Sequence record: PX393109.1
From: a phage
Strand: one strand, 5' to 3'
DNA: 64,000 bases
Within the stretch, counting starts at the first letter, position 1. Every line of letters starts with the position of its first letter. The notes under the pieces are model-generated. The model saw nothing but the letters and a program-made list of their open reading frames with translations, was not told the DNA's origin and did not search any database. Below are positions 4,603 through 26,892 of this stretch, in pieces. The position numbers and the translations under genes were made by a program.

Positions 4603-5016
4603 ATGAAGAAATTAATTGCTGCTTCTTTGATTCTGGCATCAGTCACAGCCCATGCTGGTAAAGATCCTCGTGTAGCTTCTGCTATGGAAGCTGATGTCAT
4701 TACTGCACTGTTGGCTAAGTCGTATGTTGAAGAGTGCCCAGAGTACAGTCTTGCTGAAGTGTTGTACTCTGCTAAAGAAGCGATGGTCCTGCCTGTTATG
4801 GATCATGGGCATAAGTCAGCAATCGTCCAGTTTAATGGCATAGGGTCTGATGGTAAGCCAGCAGTGATCCGCTCCCTGATTCATCTGGATCCGGTAGAAG
4901 TAGTTACAACTTTATCCGTAGAGAAAACTGGTGCGACTAAGGAAGATCTCAGTGACGCTAATGATCTGATCCTTCCATCCCTATGCACCGTAGCTGCGAA
5001 CGAATCTTTCCGTTAA
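4603..5016 (+). CDS. secreted/periplasmic protein of unknown function
   Basis: N-terminal signal peptide MKKLIAASLILASVTAHA. Confidence 0.6.
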   Translation: MKKLIAASLILASVTAHAGKDPRVASAMEADVITALLAKSYVEECPEYSLAEVLYSAKEAMVLPVMDHGHKSAIVQFNGIGSDGKPAVIRSLIHLDPVEVVTTLSVEKTGATKEDLSDANDLILPSLCTVAANESFR

Positions 5017-7032: not shown

Positions 7033-7059
7033 AATTATTTTTCAAATAAACGAATTATG

Positions 7060-7085
7060 AACGGGTTTAAAGCCCGTTCTTTTGG
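7060..7085 (+). terminator. Rho-independent terminator
   Basis: aacggg-tttaaag-cccgtt followed by cttttggg. Confidence 0.6.
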
Positions 7086-7146
7086 GTGGGGCGGCTCCGG
7101 CGGCTCCAGTCCACTAACTTAGTATAATCTAATTTTGGAGAAAATA

Positions 7147-7254
7147 ATGTCAACTAAACTCATCCGCTTCGTAGATCGTTACAGCTGGGCTCTGGTATTT
7201 GGTCTGAGCTTTGCATTCTGGGCTGCTGTTGTTGCTATCTTCCACTTCGCATAA
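7147..7254 (+). CDS. small hydrophobic peptide (35 aa)
   Basis: ATG after TATAAT and GGAG; one predicted TM (WALVFGLSFAFWAAVVAIFHF). Confidence 0.4.
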   Translation: MSTKLIRFVDRYSWALVFGLSFAFWAAVVAIFHFA

Positions 7255-7265
7255 GGAACTCTATC

Positions 7266-19432: not shown

Positions 19433-19666
19433 ATGGATAAAGAGTTAAATGGTGCAGAAGAAGATGTTCTGTACAAATTATTCTGGTTCGGACCAGCAGC
19501 AGACGGAGACCTACCATCTAAATCTGGAGCATCTGGCTTGGTAGATAAAGGATTAGCTGCCTGGTTTAAGGGTAATAATCTCTGCCCTAAGATTTATGAT
19601 GACCGTAACATGTGTATGCTTACTTCCCTTGGGGTAGACTTAGCCAGAAATAAGTATACTAAATAA
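19433..19666 (+). CDS. hypothetical protein
   Basis: ORF with SD AAGGAG. Confidence 0.5.
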   Translation: MDKELNGAEEDVLYKLFWFGPAADGDLPSKSGASGLVDKGLAAWFKGNNLCPKIYDDRNMCMLTSLGVDLARNKYTK

Positions 19667-19668
19667 AA

Positions 19669-19704
19669 CCGCTCTTTTGTACGGTCAAAAGGCTGTTAAA
19701 CTGT
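19669..19704 (+). promoter_or_regulatory. Conserved motif A copy (candidate phage promoter)
   Basis: ccgctcttttgtacggtcaaaaggctgttaaactgt. Confidence 0.5.
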
Positions 19705-19714
19705 AGAGGTTATT

Positions 19715-19746
19715 CCTATAGAGCATCTGATGGTGCTCTATGTGAA
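19715..19746 (+). promoter_or_regulatory. Conserved hairpin motif B copy
   Basis: cctatagagca-tctgatgg-tgctctatgtgaa, followed by tandem taggagatat x2 and ATG (19779). Confidence 0.45.
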
Positions 19747-19778
19747 TAGTCTTAGGAGATATTAGGAGATATTAAGAT

Positions 19779-20138
19779 ATGTTTGAGAAATTAAAATCTA
19801 TATTTAAAACTGTTCCAGCAATTCCCTTACTGACTAAATCGGAAGAGCGACTAGCTTATGAGAATATGATCCGTACTGGGGACCCTACCGAATTTATCAG
19901 AATGTTGGATAATGACGAAATCCGGATGATTCGTAAAGATACATGGACTTGGGTAAGCGCTAATGGTGTAATCCATGTCTATAACGATATTTACGGTCCG
20001 GAAGTTAAGCTGGGAGGAGTAAGTGCGTTAATTGACTGTAATGGTGATGCTTACGGTCTATCTTACGAAGATGGTAAGAGAGTATATAACGCAATCTGGG
20101 ACTCCTGCGACCGCTCCAGGAGGATGGCTCATGTTTAA
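19779..20138 (+). CDS. hypothetical protein
   Basis: ORF. Confidence 0.55.
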   Translation: MFEKLKSIFKTVPAIPLLTKSEERLAYENMIRTGDPTEFIRMLDNDEIRMIRKDTWTWVSANGVIHVYNDIYGPEVKLGGVSALIDCNGDAYGLSYEDGKRVYNAIWDSCDRSRRMAHV

Positions 20139-20301
20139 GTTACTTATTATAAGTAGTATTGTTGCTCGGGATGCTCCATCAGTTCACTCGGTAATTGCGG
20201 AATTTGAGACTAAAGATCAAGCAGATCGTGCCTACGACAAAATGGTGGAATCTGCCAACCCTCAGTCCTGGGTATCTAACAAAGTAGTGAAACTTTACTA
20301 A
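20131..20301 (+). CDS. hypothetical small protein
   Basis: ATG after AGGAGG inside track ORF 20032..20301. Confidence 0.35.
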   Translation: MFKLLIISSIVARDAPSVHSVIAEFETKDQADRAYDKMVESANPQSWVSNKVVKLY

Positions 20302-20830
20302 TAGCTGAGTTCTATTAAGGCACCTAACGGCCTAATAGTTGCTCTTCCGTAAAACAGATTCGATAGTCTGGGAAGAGCAGCTATATACTCTCATTAAGTA
20401 ATGCGTATACATAGGGCACGATTAAGTTACGTCTCCGGCTATGGTTGCATTACGAATAGTTAGGTAGTGTCCCTATTCAGATTGTCCGGAACTGGATAGA
20501 GGATGAAGGTATTGTCGAGACCTTAGTGGGGACTGATGCGAACTACACTAAGGTTTATACCCTCTCAACATTCTTAGGGGCATCTACGTAGTATACCTTG
20601 CGTCACGCGTAGGGTGAGCGAGTTAAAGCCCAAAGTGGCTTTAGGGAGCGAATCCCAGGGGGAGGCTCGGGTGGGCAAGGTCAGAGTCTCCGGAGGAGCT
20701 TAGTCTCGTGTACGCGGCGGCTCTGCCAGCCGCCGCTACACTCCAATTGGTTAAATTAGATAAGGGGCCGGTAGTTCCTACGTCCATTAGTTTAGGAGTT
20801 ATTATTTGATTATGTTGAGGAACACTATTA
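20302..20830. other. Long non-coding region with GC-rich hairpins (candidate ncRNA or origin)
   Basis: About 530 bp without a convincing ORF; hairpins aaagcc/ggcttt, cggcggc/gccgccg, gctcttcc/ggaagagc. Confidence 0.35.
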
Positions 20831-21064
20831 ATGATCGTAGTTACTGAAGAGTATATTACCTCCCAGTCTAAGGCTGGTGGGAAGGCTGTTGGAAGAGTAG
20901 CAATAGCTAAACTAACCAATATGGGTTATGTTCCTAAGGACACTCCTAAGCCACCAGCACCATGGATATGGGAAAAGGAGAATGGCAGGATTATGGCTAT
21001 TACCCAGTATATGGGGCCATTCAGACTCAAGATCGAATACTTAGTAGATCTGGAAGATTCGTAG
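20831..21064 (+). CDS. hypothetical protein
   Basis: ORF after the non-coding region. Confidence 0.5.
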   Translation: MIVVTEEYITSQSKAGGKAVGRVAIAKLTNMGYVPKDTPKPPAPWIWEKENGRIMAITQYMGPFRLKIEYLVDLEDS

Positions 21065-21065
21065 G

Positions 21066-21101
21066 CCGCTCTTTTTAGGTGCTGAAAGGCTGTTAAGGTG
21101 T
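21066..21101 (+). promoter_or_regulatory. Conserved motif A copy (candidate phage promoter)
   Basis: ccgctctttttaggtgctgaaaggctgttaaggtgt, then AGGAGA and ATG. Confidence 0.5.
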
Positions 21102-21124
21102 CAGAACTACTGTTAGGAGAAATT

Positions 21125-21319
21125 ATGACTACTGAAGAAAAGATGATCCATATGTACAATCAGGTTCATGGTCCTATCTCTGCTTCCTGTTACTGGGAGT
21201 ATGATGAAGAGACTAACGAATTGATCTGCATGAAAGATGGCCATGAATGCTGGCGGACATCTAGAGAAGAGATTCTGTTTGACTATATCACTAAGGATAT
21301 GACAGATGCCACAGTTTAA
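21125..21319 (+). CDS. hypothetical protein
   Basis: ATG (MTTEEK) with SD AGGAGA. Confidence 0.5.
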   Translation: MTTEEKMIHMYNQVHGPISASCYWEYDEETNELICMKDGHECWRTSREEILFDYITKDMTDATV

Positions 21320-21455
21320 GTGCTCCTGGTGTAAACAACATAAGGATGAGACTCCTATCGATATGTCGGAGTATGGTCTCGAACCAGTATGTCTTACCTG
21401 TATGCAGGTAATCGAAGAGCAGGCTATGGGAGGAGGCTCCGATGATGACGAGGAG
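21306..21455 (+). CDS. small zinc-ribbon-like protein (49 aa)
   Basis: CSWC...CLTC pattern; below ORF-track cut-off; overlaps neighbours. Confidence 0.3.
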
Positions 21456-21663
21456 TAATCCCGTACAGATTAATGCTCTCTGTCTAGATGGTGTCTGGAT
21501 GGCGAGTTGGGAATATTACAAAGCTAAGGATGCTAAGAAAGAGGCTGAGTTTACTGGAGAGCCGAAAGTAATTAAGCGTAGTAAGGCTAACGAAGATTGC
21601 TACTGCGGATCTGGCAAGAAGGTAAAGAATTACCCATGTAAACAATACGTCCTGAAAAGATAA
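21442..21663 (+). CDS. hypothetical protein
   Basis: ORF. Confidence 0.45.
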   Translation: MMTRSNPVQINALCLDGVWMASWEYYKAKDAKKEAEFTGEPKVIKRSKANEDCYCGSGKKVKNYPCKQYVLKR

Positions 21664-21927: not shown

Positions 21928-22486
21928 TTTCAGTATGCAGAGTCTTGAAGACTTTGTACCAGAGCATGGTAAGAGCGTAGTAGTCTTCTACCACGAGCGA
22001 TTCTATTCCCGAGTAGAAATGCTACAGATGCAAGTAGAGTTCCACTACCAGATGATAGATGGCGATGGCTGCCCAGTTCCTCAGTGGGCATGCTATGATA
22101 ATCGTGACGACATACCGTTCGATAAGCCATTCATCTGGAAAGATAAGCAGGTTAAGTTCCTTACTCTGGACGACTGTATGGAAATACATAATCGTCATCC
22201 CAAGCACCACTATCGTTACTGGTGGGTTAAGGACTGGTTCCTAACTGGCGGAGGAAATAGCCAGTTAAATAGGGAACAGCTGGCGGAGATGTCGTTAGGG
22301 ATTATGAGTGCCGAACAGTTTAGTGCTGAGCTGGATAAGGGATGTGCTGATCTGGAAGCCAAGCGTATCTTACGTGAATTAACTCGTGAATCCCGTACTG
22401 GATATTGTGAGAAGCATGGCACTCGTCAGCTGGGTAAGGACCTATGTGATGTGTGCCGTATTGAACGTGCATTTATGGAGGGATGA
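21908..22486 (+). CDS. hypothetical protein
   Basis: 192-aa ORF directly upstream of the NADAR gene. Confidence 0.55.
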   Translation: MRNMPINFSMQSLEDFVPEHGKSVVVFYHERFYSRVEMLQMQVEFHYQMIDGDGCPVPQWACYDNRDDIPFDKPFIWKDKQVKFLTLDDCMEIHNRHPKHHYRYWWVKDWFLTGGGNSQLNREQLAEMSLGIMSAEQFSAELDKGCADLEAKRILRELTRESRTGYCEKHGTRQLGKDLCDVCRIERAFMEG

Positions 22487-23142
22487 TGCGGATCTGGACC
22501 GACAAGAACTCTATTCTGGAGTTTATCGGAGAGTACCGATTCCTATCTAACTTTTATCCTGTTCCTATTGAGGATAAGAATCCTTACGGGAACGAGACTC
22601 TTCCCTCCCTTACTTACCCTAGTGTGGAGCATGCCTATCAAGCATCTAAGTCTCCATCACTAGCCCATCGTCTTATCATAGCTAGACTTCATACTCCTGG
22701 TGAGGCCAAGAGATATGGACGTAAGCTGCCCATTACTGAATCGTGGAAGGAACAGAGAGTAGATGTGATGGAACACCTACTCCGGATTAAATTCGCGAAA
22801 GGTGGGGAGCTAGCTCAAAAATTGACCGATACTTGGCCTAAGGAGCTGGTCGAAGGAAATACCCACGGAGATTCCTTCTGGGGTATGACTCGTGAGGAGT
22901 ACAAGTCCGTCCTCACTGGTATTAATATGCTCGGACGATTACTGATGAAACTTCGGGAGGAGTTAGTTATGGAACAAATGACCAAGGAGACAGGATCGTT
23001 TGCGGAGTGGCATAAACTGCTGCACCAATACGCTCAGTCTCGTGGCGGTAGCGCTGCTGATGCGGAAGCCTGGCGGGATGATTACGATGAAGGTAAGACC
23101 CCTAAGCAGGCCTACGACGATGAGTGGGGCGAAGAAGACTAA
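22483..23142 (+). CDS. NADAR (YbiA-like, DUF1768) domain protein
   Basis: FLSNFYP ... EHAYQASK ... FAKGGELAQKL ... GDSFWGM matches the NADAR signature. Confidence 0.75.
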   Translation: MMRIWTDKNSILEFIGEYRFLSNFYPVPIEDKNPYGNETLPSLTYPSVEHAYQASKSPSLAHRLIIARLHTPGEAKRYGRKLPITESWKEQRVDVMEHLLRIKFAKGGELAQKLTDTWPKELVEGNTHGDSFWGMTREEYKSVLTGINMLGRLLMKLREELVMEQMTKETGSFAEWHKLLHQYAQSRGGSAADAEAWRDDYDEGKTPKQAYDDEWGEED

Positions 23143-23846: not shown

Positions 23847-24560
23847 ATGTCTACTAAGATGATGCCACACCATCTGGCTCCGAATAAACTGTTTAACCGA
23901 TTCCTGTCATATCACGACTCCTACCACTGCGCAATTGACATCGAGACCGAGTATCTCGATTTTAAAGAGCCTGGGGTAGTTCTATCTGTAGGTATGGTGA
24001 CGGTTGGTCCTGATCACTACTCCCACGTCTACTTCACTATTGATCGAGAAGAGTCGCTGGCTCTGGGTATGAAGTCTGACCCTAACGTAGTTGAATGGCT
24101 CAACACTCTCCCGAAACCCGTCCGTGATGCTGCATATGCTAATCCAGTATCTGTTGACGAAGCTCTGGATATCATCGAAGAGTACGTAGCTAAGGTACTA
24201 CAGGATCCTGGTTGCCAGATGTTGAACTTCATCGGTAACGCACCAGAGTTCGACCAGGGATTCCTGGATTGGTACTTTAAGGCTAAAGGACGTAAGACCC
24301 CGTTCCTACACTGGATGAATCGAGATTACCGCACTCTGGCTAGTCTGCAGCTGATCTCATTCGATGATCGTCGCATGATTAAAGAAGAACTGAGTAGCCA
24401 GCACGAGTCTATGTCTGATCACCATGCATTGTTCGATGCGATGCTGGAAGCTAAGACTTGGGTTCGCACCATCAATCGTGTAAAAGAGTTACAGGATCTG
24501 GAGCACGAGGTGAATACCATGATTGCTATGCAGGGTAACTCTGTGGAAGATGGAGAGTAA
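23847..24560 (+). CDS. DEDD-type 3'-5' exonuclease (DnaQ-like)
   Basis: AIDIETE (Exo I) and HHALFDA (Exo III, DEDDh) motifs. Confidence 0.65.
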   Translation: MSTKMMPHHLAPNKLFNRFLSYHDSYHCAIDIETEYLDFKEPGVVLSVGMVTVGPDHYSHVYFTIDREESLALGMKSDPNVVEWLNTLPKPVRDAAYANPVSVDEALDIIEEYVAKVLQDPGCQMLNFIGNAPEFDQGFLDWYFKAKGRKTPFLHWMNRDYRTLASLQLISFDDRRMIKEELSSQHESMSDHHALFDAMLEAKTWVRTINRVKELQDLEHEVNTMIAMQGNSVEDGE

Positions 24561-25136: not shown

Positions 25137-25516
25137 TGTCTCATATGACCCGAGAAGAAATCGTATTGATGGTGGCTAAGGTGTGTCACGAAGCTAATCG
25201 TGCATACTGCCATTCTATCGGAGACTTCACCCAATTAAGCTGGGAAGCAACATCCGATGAAATAAAACAGTCGGCTATTGATGGAGCGTATAACTGCTTA
25301 CACAATAACCGTATCAGCCCAGAAGAGTCCCATGAATTCTGGGTTAAAACTAAAAAGGAGCAGGGCTGGAAGTATGGAGAAATCAAAGATCTCGCAGCTA
25401 AGACGCACCCGTGTATGGTTCCATATTCACGGTTGCCGGAAGAGCATCGAGTCAAAGATCACCTCTTCACCAGCATCTGCGCAGCATTCATTAAACAGTA
25501 CAAAAGGGCATCATGA
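25136..25516 (+). CDS. RyR-domain-like protein
   Basis: [20 protein letters not shown]...[20 protein letters not shown] resembles the bacterial/phage RyR-domain consensus. Confidence 0.45.
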
Positions 25517-25983
25517 TGACCGTAGTTCAAGTAAAGAAAACTATTAACTGGGACGACTCTCTGGAGTTACCGAAATACGCTAAAGCTGGTGATGCTGGTC
25601 TTGATCTTCGTGCGATGATTAAGACTGACGAAATCGATAAAATCGCTGTAAATCCTGGCGAAACTATCCTGGTCCCTACCGGTCTAGCGATCAACATCGG
25701 CGATCCGAACATCGCTTCTGTGATTCTTCCCCGCAGCGGCCTCGGCCATAAAAATGGCATCGTACTGGGTAACTTGGTTGGTCTTATCGACTCCGGCTAT
25801 CAAGGAGAACTGATGGTGTCTGTGTGGAACCGTAGTAACGAATCTTTCGTTATTAACCACGGCGACCGTATCGCTCAAATGGTGTTTCTTCCCGTTATCC
25901 ATCCAGAGCTCCAGCTTGTGGATAAATTCTCTGATGTTTCTGAACGTGGCGACGGTGGGTTTGGCCATTCCGGGATTAAGTAA
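25513..25983 (+). CDS. dut: dUTP diphosphatase (dUTPase)
   Basis: [44 protein letters not shown] and DRIAQMVF motifs. Confidence 0.9.
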
Positions 25984-26013
25984 TCCTGGGGTAGTTAGAC
26001 TACGGTAATTACT

Positions 26014-26039
26014 ATTGACCTCTTTGCGGAGAGGTCAAT
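26014..26039 (+). terminator. Hairpin / putative terminator after dut
   Basis: attgacctct-ttgcgg-agaggtcaat (10-bp stem), followed by a T-rich tract. Confidence 0.5.
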
Positions 26040-26065
26040 GTTATTCTACCATAGAACCGAGGAAT

Positions 26066-26269
26066 ATGATGGATATTGAGCAACTAACTAAGGATCTTAA
26101 TCGTAACCAGATTACGGTTATTCGTTCGGAGCACTTAGCTCCCAAGACTATGATCGTGTCTGATGATATCTGGGGCACATTCAAGAATAATAATAATAAT
26201 AATAATAATAATGCTACTGTAGAAGCTACAGATGAAGAATCTGTTAAGAACATGCTGGAGCATCCGTAA
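26066..26269 (+). CDS. hypothetical protein with poly-Asn tract
   Basis: Start MMDIEQ with SD GAGGA; contains the (AAT)9 repeat. Confidence 0.5.
   Translation: MMDIEQLTKDLNRNQITVIRSEHLAPKTMIVSDDIWGTFKNNNNNNNNNATVEATDEESVKNMLEHP
26185..26211 (+). repeat. (AAT)9 trinucleotide microsatellite
   Basis: aataataataataataataataataat, in frame, encoding N9. Confidence 0.9.
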
Positions 26270-26892
26270 TGATCCTTGGTAAATCTTATATTGAGCAGGC
26301 AATTACTCAAGGATTATGGACCTATCACAGTTATCTGGACAATCAGGAACCACGAATCGGACAGAATAGTGTAGATGTACGCTTAGCTCCGTTCTTCCTG
26401 GTTCCTCAAAAGATGCCTGATGGCCATGTAGTAGATCCCTATAAACCATGTACTCTTCCGGAGTATCGCGAGGTAGAGGCACTATACTACGATCTTAAAC
26501 CTGGGGAGTTCATCTTAGGCTCAGCATCTGAACGTATCGACTGTACTACCATGTTGCCTGAGAAGTGGTTCGAGCATTATGACCCACGATACCGTAACAG
26601 CACTGTAGACCGTGGTGTGGCATTCTGTCAGCATTACGACGGTCGCAGCACTATGGGTCGTCTGGGAATACTGAGCCATGTCAGTGCAGGTTTCGGGGAC
26701 TTTGGATTCAAGGGAGCATTTACTCTAGAGATTGTTAACCTAAGCCCTAACACTATCCGACTGCGTTCTAACATGCGCATCGGTCAGATTTACTTTACTG
26801 AGGTTGCTGGTGGTGGCTACGACCTTTACAAAGGTTACGACCAGACTGACTTTAAACCAGTCGCACCAATCATAGGTCGCGATCGTTTCTAA
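26269..26892 (+). CDS. dCTP deaminase-like protein (dUTPase-fold)
   Basis: VDVRL and DGRSTMGRLGI...LEIVN...IRL..NMRIGQIYF align with Dcd motifs. Confidence 0.6.
   Translation: MILGKSYIEQAITQGLWTYHSYLDNQEPRIGQNSVDVRLAPFFLVPQKMPDGHVVDPYKPCTLPEYREVEALYYDLKPGEFILGSASERIDCTTMLPEKWFEHYDPRYRNSTVDRGVAFCQHYDGRSTMGRLGILSHVSAGFGDFGFKGAFTLEIVNLSPNTIRLRSNMRIGQIYFTEVAGGGYDLYKGYDQTDFKPVAPIIGRDRF

What the first reader, a model, noticed from the sequence alone, without database searches (positions are those of the whole stretch)
20302..20830. About 530-bp ORF-free, hairpin-rich region
This is the largest coding gap in an otherwise tightly packed gene array and contains several GC-rich perfect hairpins (aaagcc/ggcttt, cggcggc-tctgcca-gccgccg, gctcttcc...ggaagagc). 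It could encode a structured ncRNA or act as a replication origin or packaging site. I could not fit a tRNA cloverleaf (no TPsiC-loop consensus).
Basis: seen in the sequence. Interest (0 to 1): 0.55.

Follow-up and report, generated by a model that had tools for sequence, protein, structure and literature searches.

The report
New large structured RNA in coliphage
The 530-bp gene-free stretch of this E. coli phage most likely encodes a conserved, roughly 490-nucleotide, multi-domain folded RNA that matches no known RNA family; it is clearly under selection, but its function is still unknown.

Summary
Positions 20302-20830 are the largest non-coding stretch of the window, and the three quoted hairpins are there. 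The window is an E. coli myophage of the EP_H11 / vB_EcoM_IME392 clade, which has T-hypermodified DNA and its own RNA polymerase.

The gap is kept at the same locus in every relative I could recover: 9 sequences, 4-5 lineages, down to 76% identity. Between the two main lineages, third-codon positions of the flanking genes are only 45-51% identical. The gap nevertheless keeps identical runs of 22, 22, 19 and 18 nt, separated by helices whose sequences differ but still pair. My curated structure has 89 pairs and 97.7% of cells paired. Twenty-one pairs changed on both sides, against 1-4 in slid controls and 0/500 shuffles.

G·U pairs (43 cells, versus 3 A·C) place the RNA on the + strand. There is no conserved ORF, no codon periodicity, no tRNA/tmRNA and no Rfam match. 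A repeated promoter-like motif puts the element inside an operon.

Best reading: a new family of large structured RNA, probably acting as an autonomous RNA rather than a gene-specific leader. Origin and packaging-site readings are not supported. Function is unproven, and the family is narrow.

The parts
20302..20790 (+). The whole conserved structured RNA element, about 490 nt. Conservation starts right after the stop codon of the 56-aa gene. It ends about 40 nt before the start codon of the next gene.
   Evidence: Alignments A2/A3, pair counts, identity runs.
20305..20332 (+). 5' block CTGAGTTCTATTAAGGCACCTAACGGCC, nearly invariant. It contains ACCTAAC (20322-20328), which could pair with GTTAGGT (20459-20465). 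I call this P2; it would close domain I. It is tentative because both strands are invariant.
   Evidence: helix 1: 7 pairs, none vary.
20335..20384 (+). H2, a long hairpin: outer stem 20335-48/20371-84 and inner stem 20355-60/20365-70. The stem sequence differs in each of three lineages but still pairs. The apical CAGATTCG..AG.CTG is conserved.
   Evidence: 11 of 14 outer pairs changed on both sides. IME392 has one C·A mismatch.
20385..20397 (+). Conserved junction ATACTCTCATTAA between H2 and H3.
20398..20453 (+). H3 (20398-403/20448-53) and H4 (20410-14/20439-43). They enclose the invariant apical block GCACGATTAAGTTACGTC.
   Evidence: H3: 2 compensatory pairs and 1 A-U to G·U change. The apical block is an 18-nt invariant run.
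20467..20583 (+). Domain II, a three-way junction. P4 is 20467-75/20575-83 and is tentative; a competing local hairpin is 20469-80/20492-504. H5 is 20476-80/20492-96. The long arm is P6 (20498-501/20562-65 and 20508-12/20557-61) plus H7 (20518-28/20546-56).
   Evidence: H7 has 4 compensatory pairs (ACCTTAGTG/CACTAAGGT becomes GCTGTAGAG/CTCTACAGC) and one G·U to A-U change. P6 and P4 are mostly invariant. This domain also holds the invariant 22-nt run TAGAGGATGAAGGTATTGTCGA.
20595..20681 (+). Domain III, a four-way junction closed by P8 (ACCTTGC 20595-601 / GCAAGGT 20675-81). It encloses a variable hairpin (about 20602-20620), H9 (20625-30/20637-42, loop CAAAGT) and H10 (20654-58/20666-71, G-rich loop GGGGAGG).
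   Evidence: P8: CC/GG becomes GG/CC in L005 and L077. H9: A-U becomes G-C in L006. H10 pairs in all four lineages. The variable hairpin differs in four lineages.
20688..20698 (+). H11, CTCC-GGA-GGAG hairpin.
   Evidence: C-G becomes A-U in L005 and L077.
20708..20741 (+). H12, a long GC-rich hairpin (GTGTA-C-GCGGCGGCT / loop CTGCC / AGCCGCCGC-TACAC). No U tract follows it in this lineage.
   Evidence: It is kept with different sequence in L005 and L077 (AGAGTA..GCGCGGCT / AGCCGCGC..TACTCT), with no mismatches. The loop is reverse-complemented in EP_H11. The terminator scan does not call it.
20743..20750 (+). 8-nt perfect palindrome CCAATTGG. L005 and L077 have a different 8-nt palindrome, AAGCGCTT, at the same place. 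Meaning unknown.
   Evidence: Palindromes are not enriched overall.
20764..20778 (+). H13, GGGGC-CGGTA-GTTCC hairpin, followed by conserved ACGT. This is the 3' limit of conservation.
   Evidence: GGGGA/TCCTC in L005 and L077, all pairs kept; C-G becomes A-U.
20131..20301 (+). Upstream 56-aa gene (phrog_7747). It lies immediately 5' of the element in every lineage.
20831..21064 (+). Downstream 77-aa gene. L077 has an unrelated 62-aa gene here instead. Homologs of the 77-aa gene in Seuratvirus-like phages have no such element upstream.
19689..19704 (+). Promoter-like motif AAGGCTGTTAAACTGT, upstream of the unit that contains the element.
   Evidence: 7 copies on the + strand against 0.48 expected. 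The motif is kept in L005 and L077 on both sides of the same unit.
21086..21101 (+). Next copy of the promoter-like motif, marking the start of the following unit.

Best explanation
Positions 20302 to about 20790 encode, on the + strand, a conserved structured RNA of about 490 nt belonging to a previously undescribed family.

Shown: the region is non-coding, it is under purifying selection, and it forms at least eight helices that are maintained by compensatory substitutions. The helices are arranged in three junction domains followed by a tail of three hairpins. The variable-sequence stems carry invariant loops and junctions.

Inferred: it is transcribed as part of a + strand operon, in the order promoter-like motif at 19689, 119-aa gene, 56-aa gene, element, 77-aa gene, next motif at 21086. 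The long hairpins H2 and H12 that bracket the core probably define or protect the ends of a processed, stable RNA.

Most likely mode of action (inferred): the folded RNA works as an autonomous molecule during early or middle infection. It would act as a protein-binding scaffold or decoy, or possibly a catalytic or self-assembling RNA, through its invariant loops and junctions. It is less likely to be a regulator of one neighbouring gene.
For: Conservation of the locus: the gap is kept at the same place in all relatives found. These are EP_H11, IME392, L079, L085 and L086 (98-99%), L006 (95%), L078 (partial), L005 (77%) and L077 (76%).

Selection: between the window and L005, third-codon positions of the flanking genes are only 0.45-0.51 identical. 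The element nevertheless has identical runs of 22, 22, 19, 18, 15 and 14 nt, against at most 17 in the coding flanks.

Structure: RNAalifold predicts 124 pairs, 24 of them with compensatory changes. My curated 13-helix structure has 97.7% of 700 cells paired. Twenty-one pairs changed on both sides, against 1-4 when partners are slid by 1-3 columns, and 0/500 shuffles reach the observed value. A long-range helix, P8, was found purely from covariation: ACCUUGC/GCAAGGU versus AGGUUGC/GCAACCU. H10, H12 and H13 pair without mismatch in all lineages despite different sequences.

Strand: 43 G·U cells in 11 pairs, against 3 A·C cells in 2 pairs. Folding energy is -185 kcal/mol on the + strand and -153 on the - strand.

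Not coding: 6-16 stops per frame across the lineages, no shared ORF, substitutions spread evenly over the three phases (51/46/50, p = 0.89), and many 1-nt indels.

Independence from the downstream gene: L077 keeps the element in front of an unrelated 62-aa gene. Homologs of the 77-aa gene elsewhere lack the element.

Operon context.
Against: There is no transcript data, so the ends, the stability and even the existence of a discrete RNA are inferred.

Only 4-5 lineages are available, and they fall into two main groups. Many compensatory changes therefore trace back to a single split and are not independent events.

Local folding z-scores are not outliers for this genome.

Two proposed long-range helices, P2 and P4, are invariant and so untested. 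P4 also competes with a local hairpin.

IME392 carries a C·A mismatch in H2.

The element lies inside an operon and has no promoter-like motif of its own, which fits a cis-acting role equally well.

The family is confined to one small phage clade.
Confidence: 0.55

Rival explanations
1. The element is a cis-acting part of the polycistronic mRNA. It would be an unusually large intercistronic element that controls processing, stability, or the relative expression of the genes on either side. For example, H2 and H12 could be RNase III- or RNase E-type processing or barrier hairpins, or the 3' tail could gate the ribosome-binding site downstream.
For: The element lies inside a transcription unit, between two copies of the promoter-like motif, and has no motif of its own. 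It starts directly at the stop codon of the 56-aa gene in every lineage and ends about 40 nt before the next Shine-Dalgarno sequence. Two long hairpins bracket the core.
Against: The downstream gene has been exchanged for an unrelated one in L077 while the element is kept. Homologs of the 56-aa gene (Merlin, SenASZ3) and of the 77-aa gene in other phages lack any such element. About 490 nt with three junction domains and 18-22-nt invariant unpaired blocks is far more than known processing sites or leaders need.
Confidence: 0.27
2. The element acts at the DNA level, as a replication origin, a packaging (pac) site, or another protein-binding region whose hairpins form as cruciforms.
For: It is the largest non-coding region of the window. 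The loop of H12 is exactly inverted in EP_H11, so this palindrome has behaved as a DNA hairpin at least once. Two sites carry lineage-specific perfect palindromes.
Against: G·U pairs are common and are kept on the + strand only (43 cells, against 3 A·C cells); in DNA they would be mismatches. GC is higher than in the surroundings (0.54-0.58 against about 0.42). There is no AT-rich unwinding stretch, no iterons and no significant direct repeats, and the cumulative GC skew does not turn. Palindromes are not enriched.
Confidence: 0.06
3. The region is only a spacer holding ordinary terminators and promoters, or selectively neutral leftover DNA. The apparent structure would then reflect relatedness of the sequences.
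For: Folding z-scores are ordinary for this genome. Few lineages are available, so shuffling controls overstate significance (see the caveat).
Against: Invariant runs reach 22 nt where neutral sites are about 50% identical. Slid-partner controls, which keep relatedness, give 1-4 double-changed pairs against 21 observed. The scans found no intrinsic terminator and only one weak sigma-70-like site.
Confidence: 0.04
4. The region holds a missed or decayed protein-coding gene, or small ORFs with unusual start codons.
For: There are stop-free stretches of up to 62 codons. One 43-codon frame, LGSVPIQ..EDEGIVE, is partly shared between lineages.
Against: There are 6-16 stops in every frame. No ORF is shared in frame, and 1-nt indels occur between lineages. 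Substitutions show no three-base periodicity. The partly shared frame is invariant at the nucleotide level, including third positions, and it has no start codon.
Confidence: 0.03
5. The element is a self-splicing intron (group I or II) or another known ribozyme or RNA class that is too diverged for the models to detect.
For: The size and the multi-junction architecture with a possible pseudoknot are compatible with this.
Against: There is no Rfam match, even at E up to 10, in the window or in the diverged relatives. The flanking genes are complete, separate genes. The 56-aa protein aligns end to end with PHROG profiles, and the 77-aa protein has uninterrupted stand-alone homologs.
Confidence: 0.03

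Closest known systems
Large 'ornate' bacterial and phage RNAs of unknown function (ROOL, GOLLD, OLE; Weinberg et al. 2017, PMC5737381; cryo-EM structures, PMC12286853)
   Same: It is a non-coding RNA of more than 400 nt with several multi-helix junctions. Variable stems carry highly conserved loops and junctions. It is phage-borne, as many ROOL and GOLLD copies are. Its function cannot be read from the genomic context.
   Different: It has no sequence or structure match to the Rfam models of these families. It is not next to tRNA genes; there are none in the window. It is found in an E. coli myophage with T-hypermodified DNA, inside an operon of small genes. Oligomerisation is untested. The two lineage-specific palindromes are only a hint and are not statistically supported.
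phi29 packaging RNA (pRNA)
   Same: It is a phage-encoded structured RNA transcribed from the non-structural gene region, whose helices covary between relatives.
   Different: pRNA is about 170 nt, is restricted to phi29-like podoviruses, and has a defined ring-forming loop-loop interaction. There is no Rfam pRNA match here, and the size and architecture are quite different. No link to packaging is shown.
Intercistronic RNase III processing hairpins of T7-like early mRNAs
   Same: Long, imperfect hairpins (H2, H12) lie between cistrons of a polycistronic phage transcript.
   Different: Those sites are single hairpins of about 40-60 nt. Here two such hairpins bracket about 320 nt of additional conserved, junction-rich structure.
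Group I self-splicing introns of phages
   Same: The size is similar (a few hundred nt), the fold is multi-domain, and a long-range pairing is possible.
   Different: It does not interrupt a gene. There is no Rfam Intron_gpI match, and no homing-endonuclease ORF.

Membership tests
Any Rfam 15 family (4227 models, including ROOL, GOLLD, OLE, pRNA, RNase P, tmRNA, 6S, group I/II introns, riboswitches and small ribozymes) | Covariance-model score at or above the family's gathering threshold | tested here: not met
   There are no gathering-level hits in the whole window. At E up to 10, the 1.2 kb around the gap gives only a chance snoRNA hit inside the next gene. Nothing falls in the element in the diverged relatives L005 and L077.
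tRNA / tmRNA | Cloverleaf, or tRNA-like domain with a tag reading frame | tested here: not met
   ARAGORN finds 0 genes in 64 kb.
Group I intron | Interrupts a host gene, so that the flanking exons form one reading frame or RNA | tested here: not met
   The 56-aa protein aligns end to end with PHROG profiles. The 77-aa protein has its own Shine-Dalgarno sequence and ATG, and has uninterrupted stand-alone homologs.
Group I intron | Conserved catalytic core (P3-P9 with the G-binding P7), as captured by RF00028 | tested here: not met
   No match at E up to 10. A manual check of the core was not possible with these tools.
ROOL / GOLLD / OLE-type large ornate RNA (as a kind, not one family) | A non-coding RNA of more than 400 nt with multiple junctions supported by covariation | tested here: met
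   About 490 nt, 13 curated helices, 21 pairs with changes on both sides, controls passed.
ROOL / GOLLD / OLE-type large ornate RNA (as a kind, not one family) | Homo-oligomeric assembly | not testable with these tools
   The only hint is lineage-specific palindromes at two sites. Palindromes are not enriched overall.
ROOL / GOLLD | Frequent location next to tRNA genes in phages or prophages | tested here: not met
   No tRNA gene in the window. The neighbours are small hypothetical genes.
Replication origin | AT-rich unwinding element, iterons or initiator boxes, and a change in strand-composition skew | tested here: not met
   GC is 0.54-0.58 in 20500-20800, against about 0.42 around it. The cumulative skew rises monotonically. 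Only short two-copy direct repeats of chance type are found.
Intrinsic terminator | GC-rich hairpin directly followed by a U tract | tested here: not met
   The scan finds no + strand terminator in 19500-21500. H12 is followed by TCCAATTGG.
Retron, DGR or CRISPR-type RNA loci | An adjacent reverse transcriptase or cas gene, or a repeat array | tested here: not met
   The neighbouring proteins have no such domains. There are no direct-repeat families in the gap.

The most novel reading that the evidence does not exclude
This is the founding member of a new class of large, autonomous structured RNAs, comparable in size and complexity to ROOL, GOLLD and OLE. It is carried by a lytic E. coli phage with hypermodified DNA. 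Its invariant loops and junctions would mediate a biochemical activity such as catalysis, self-assembly, or capture of a host or phage protein. Because the host is E. coli, the function of a large 'ornate' RNA could be tested directly by genetics.
Probability: 0.4. Interest if true: 0.8.

Novelty: new variant of a known kind. Interest (0 to 1): 0.62.

Why it matters
Structured non-coding RNAs longer than 400 nt are rare outside rRNA, RNase P, tmRNA and introns. The few known classes (OLE, GOLLD, ROOL) still lack a clear function and mostly occur in organisms that are hard to work with. Here a new RNA of similar size and complexity sits in a culturable lytic phage of E. coli. Deletion, trans-complementation, pull-downs and structure probing are all straightforward in that system.

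The element also shows that current annotations of this phage clade, which mark nothing at this locus, miss a strongly selected genetic element. In addition, the work yields a candidate promoter motif for a poorly studied group of phages that encode their own RNA polymerase.

Tried and rejected
1. Rfam at gathering and permissive thresholds, on the window and on diverged relatives: nothing. ARAGORN: nothing.

2. Paralogs in the window, or copies in E. coli genomes: none.

3. Pattern scans with invariant blocks:
- IMG/VR, five patterns: 0 hits. A protein-based scan also found nothing.
- GTDB genomes, two patterns: 0 hits.
- Metagenome contigs with AGGATGAAGGTATTGTCG: 62 hits. None extends into the element by nhmmer. 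The two best hits, which I read, are acidic coding repeats encoding EDEGIVE.

4. Homologs of the 77-aa gene: most are Seuratvirus-like contexts without the element.

5. Distant homologs of the 56-aa gene (phages Merlin, SenASZ3): no large gap downstream.

6. YerA41 positions 1-50,000, the syntenic NADAR/exonuclease region: no nhmmer hit and no promoter-like motif.

7. Thermodynamic outlier test: the region is not an outlier, so I dropped fold energy as evidence.

8. Dimerisation by palindromes: palindromes of 6 or 8 nt or more are at shuffle expectation. I kept this only as an unexplained note.

9. A closing helix between the 5' CTGAGTT and 20697-20703, as in the single-sequence MFE: not conserved in L005 or L077, so I dropped it.

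10. AlphaFold model of the 56-aa neighbour: pLDDT 60, unusable, so no fold search was run. Pfam gives nothing significant for the neighbours.

11. Looking for the 3' half of the L078 variant through 77-aa-gene contigs: only window-like sequences came back.

Full report
**What the window is.** The region is 97.5-99% identical to Escherichia phages vB_EcoM_IME392 (116 kb) and EP_H11 (111 kb), and nothing is annotated at this locus in either record. The literature places these two phages in the YerA41/RP13/SP-15-like group, which has hypermodified thymidine (PMC12686479; bioRxiv 10.1101/2025.03.26.645540). The window encodes an RNA-polymerase beta-like protein, a NAD-dependent ligase, a tail sheath and tailspikes. 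Genes from 1 to about 29.4 kb are on the + strand. They are mostly small and tightly packed.

**Checking the observation.**
- The upstream 56-aa gene ends at 20301, and the 77-aa gene starts at 20831 behind a GAGGAA ribosome-binding site.
- The 529 nt between them have 7-15 stops in every frame.
- Other gaps in my crude gene call are open reading frames or are 233 nt or shorter. This is therefore the largest non-coding stretch.
- The three quoted hairpins are present.
- GC rises to 0.54-0.58 in 20500-20800, against about 0.42 nearby.
- ARAGORN finds no tRNA or tmRNA. Rfam gives nothing, even at E up to 10.
- The whole gap folds better than shuffles: + strand -185 kcal/mol, z = -3.8; - strand -153, z = -3.1.
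- A sliding-window control shows that such z-scores are common in this genome: mean -0.92, sd 1.3, and eight windows at -3.6 or below. Fold energy alone is therefore not evidence.

**Finding relatives.**
- GenBank phages hold only the two near-identical genomes. E. coli genomes, IMG/VR and GTDB genomes hold nothing.
- Searching the flanking proteins in the large protein collection and fetching their contigs gave the useful sequences. These are L079, L085 and L086 (about 99%), L006 (95%, divergent around 20600-20680), L078 (truncated, with a different variable hairpin), L005 (77%) and L077 (76%).
- Synteny is kept in all of them: the 56-aa gene, then a gap of about 510-530 nt, then a small gene.
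- The single metagenome pattern scan returned 62 loci. None extends into the element by nhmmer, and the two best, which I read, are chance matches in coding acidic repeats.

**Evidence for selection.**
- Between the window and L005, third-codon positions of the three flanking genes are 0.45-0.51 identical, which is close to saturation.
- The element is 67% identical overall but contains identical runs of 22, 22, 19, 18, 15 and 14 nt. The coding flanks reach at most 10-17 nt.
- Substitutions show no codon periodicity (51/46/50, p = 0.89), and 1-nt indels are frequent. No ORF is shared. The constraint therefore acts on the nucleotide sequence, not on a protein.

**Evidence for RNA structure.**
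- The variable stretches between the invariant blocks are helices whose two strands change together.
- RNAalifold on the 8-sequence alignment A3 predicts 124 pairs, 24 with compensatory changes.
- A covariation-only scan also revealed a long-range helix, P8. It reads ACCUUGC/GCAAGGU in the window lineage and AGGUUGC/GCAACCU in L005 and L077.
- My curated structure has 13 helices and 89 pairs. It scores 97.7% paired cells and 21 pairs with changes on both sides. Controls with partners slid by 1-3 columns, which preserve relatedness, give 1-4 such pairs. None of 500 shuffles reaches the observed values.
- Best supported helices:

| Helix | Window coordinates | Support |
|---|---|---|
| H2 | 20335-48/20371-84 | 11 covarying pairs; three different stem sequences |
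| H7 | 20518-28/20546-56 | 4 compensatory pairs |
| H3 | 20398-403/20448-53 | 2 compensatory pairs |
| P8 | 20595-601/20675-81 | 2 compensatory pairs |
| H9 | 20625-30/20637-42 | 1 compensatory pair, in L006 |
| H11 | 20688-91/20695-98 | 1 compensatory pair |

- H10, H12 (20708-41) and H13 (20764-68/20774-78) pair without mismatch in every lineage despite different sequences.
- P2 (20322-28/20459-65), P4 and P6 are invariant, so they remain plausible but untested. P4 also competes with a local hairpin.
- The resulting picture has three junction domains, at about 20322-20465, 20467-20583 and 20595-20681, followed by a tail of three hairpins. Invariant loops and junctions sit on variable stems.

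**Which strand, and RNA or DNA?** In the curated helices, 43 cells in 11 pairs are G·U, and 3 cells in 2 pairs are A·C. G·U to A-U and G·U to G-C changes recur. These pairs would be mismatches on the opposite strand or in a DNA cruciform, so the functional molecule is + strand RNA. All surrounding genes are on the + strand.

**Transcriptional context.**
- The motif AAGGCTGTTAAnnTGT occurs 7 times against 0.48 expected. All copies are on the + strand, and those I checked lie in the gaps upstream of genes.
- One copy is at 19689 and the next at 21086. L005 and L077 keep the motif at the corresponding places, and no copy lies inside the element.
- If the motif is a promoter, which is inferred and not shown, the element lies within a single unit: motif, 119-aa gene, 56-aa gene, element, 77-aa gene.
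- The scans find no + strand intrinsic terminator and only one weak sigma-70-like site in 19500-21500.

**Cis or trans?**
- L077 is a mosaic. Its 56-aa gene and the first 30 nt or so of the element are 94-98% window-like. The rest of the element is L005-like, and the downstream gene is an unrelated 62-aa ORF.
- Homologs of the 77-aa gene in Seuratvirus-like phages, and distant homologs of the 56-aa gene in Merlin and SenASZ3, have no comparable non-coding region.
- The element is therefore not a dedicated leader of the 77-aa gene. Its size and its invariant unpaired blocks also exceed what known processing sites or leaders need.
- I therefore favour an autonomous RNA matured from the operon transcript, with the long hairpins H2 and H12 defining or protecting its ends (confidence 0.55).
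- A cis-acting intercistronic element remains a serious rival (0.27).
- DNA-level roles are unlikely (0.06). There is no AT-rich stretch, no iterons, no skew change and no palindrome enrichment.

**Comparison with known systems.**
- The element is not a member of any Rfam family.
- It is not an intron, because the flanking genes are complete.
- It is not a terminator.
- In kind it resembles the large ornate RNAs ROOL, GOLLD and OLE: size, junction-rich fold, phage association and unknown function (PMC5737381, PMC12286853).
- It differs from them in sequence, architecture, host, lack of tRNA neighbours and operon-internal position.

**Limits.**
- Only 4-5 lineages in two main groups are available, so the covariation events are partly non-independent.
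- There is no expression data.
- The family is confined to one small clade. The nearby exonuclease-like gene has close relatives in GenBank only in EP_H11 and IME392, and the syntenic part of YerA41 lacks the element.
- The function is not established.

**Verdict.** The region is best explained as a new, strongly conserved RNA of about 490 nt with a multi-domain fold. It is moderately to highly interesting because RNAs of this size are rare and this one sits in a tractable E. coli phage.

Noticed in passing
window 2827, 8584, 14620, 19689, 21086, 23805, 24880 (+ strand); L005 2 and 1869; L077 2560 and 3896: A repeated intergenic motif, AAAGGCTGTTAAnnTGT, often has a CCGCTCTTTT-like T-rich block about 20 nt upstream. 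There are 7 copies against 0.48 expected. All are on the + strand and all fall in the early/middle gene region. It is probably a class-specific promoter of this phage, which encodes its own RNA-polymerase subunit(s). The motif is absent from the first 50 kb of YerA41.
   Followed up: partly
window 20723-20727; L001 (EP_H11) 4624-4628: The 5-nt loop of hairpin H12 is CTGCC in the window and its exact reverse complement, GGCAG, in EP_H11. The stem is unchanged. This is the signature of a palindrome-mediated loop inversion at the DNA level. It also shows that the loop sequence is not constrained.
   Followed up: no
L077 3001-3873: This is a mosaic relative. The 56-aa gene and the first 30 nt or so of the element are 94-98% identical to the window. 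The rest of the element follows the L005 lineage at 36-88% identity to the window (50-nt windows). The 77-aa gene is replaced by an unrelated 62-aa ORF. The recombination junctions lie in the invariant 5' block and just after H13.
   Followed up: partly
L078 1960-2013 (contig ends inside the element): In this variant lineage the 5' strand of helix P8 reads GGGTTAG instead of ACCTTGC, and the variable hairpin is replaced. The 3' partner lies beyond the end of the contig. The structure model predicts a CTAACCC-like sequence there.
   Followed up: partly
window 20485-20490 and 20743-20750; L005 1282-1289 and 1551-1558: Two sites carry perfect palindromes that differ between lineages but sit at the same place. 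In the H5 loop they are TCCGGA versus GAGATCTC, and just 3' of H12 they are CCAATTGG versus AAGCGCTT. This could hint at RNA dimerisation or protein binding. However, palindromes as a whole are at chance frequency in the element.
   Followed up: partly
window 20339 and 20380 (compared with IME392): IME392 changed both partners of one H2 pair from U·G to C·A. That breaks the pair on the + strand and would give G·U on the - strand. It is the only clear exception to the + strand pairing pattern.
   Followed up: no
window 11150-11185 and 7050-7130: Two textbook intrinsic terminators lie in other gaps. One is CATAGGGAGACTTCGGTCTCCCTTATTTTT. The other is AACGGGTTTAAAGCCCGTTCTTTT, followed by TAGTATAAT and a 43-codon ORF in the second-largest gap (7033-7265).
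   Followed up: no
window about 26190-26215: An (AAT)8 microsatellite lies inside a frame that is almost fully open (one stop across 25984-26268). It would encode an Asn run and could be a site of length variation.
   Followed up: no
window 20793-20847: The window lineage has a 26-nt insertion relative to L005 and L077 just before the 77-aa gene. The insertion creates a second Shine-Dalgarno-like site (TAGGAG) and an 11-codon upstream ORF (ATG at 20812) that overlaps the real start codon at 20831.
   Followed up: no
window 22483-23142, 23847-24560, 25513-25983, 26269-26892: The genes downstream of the element include a NADAR-domain protein, an Rv2179c-like 3'-5' exoribonuclease, a dUTPase and a dCTP-deaminase-like protein. 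YerA41 has genes annotated as NADAR-like, 3'-5' exonuclease and dUTPase in the same order. The exoribonuclease-like protein has close relatives in GenBank only in EP_H11 and IME392.
   Followed up: partly
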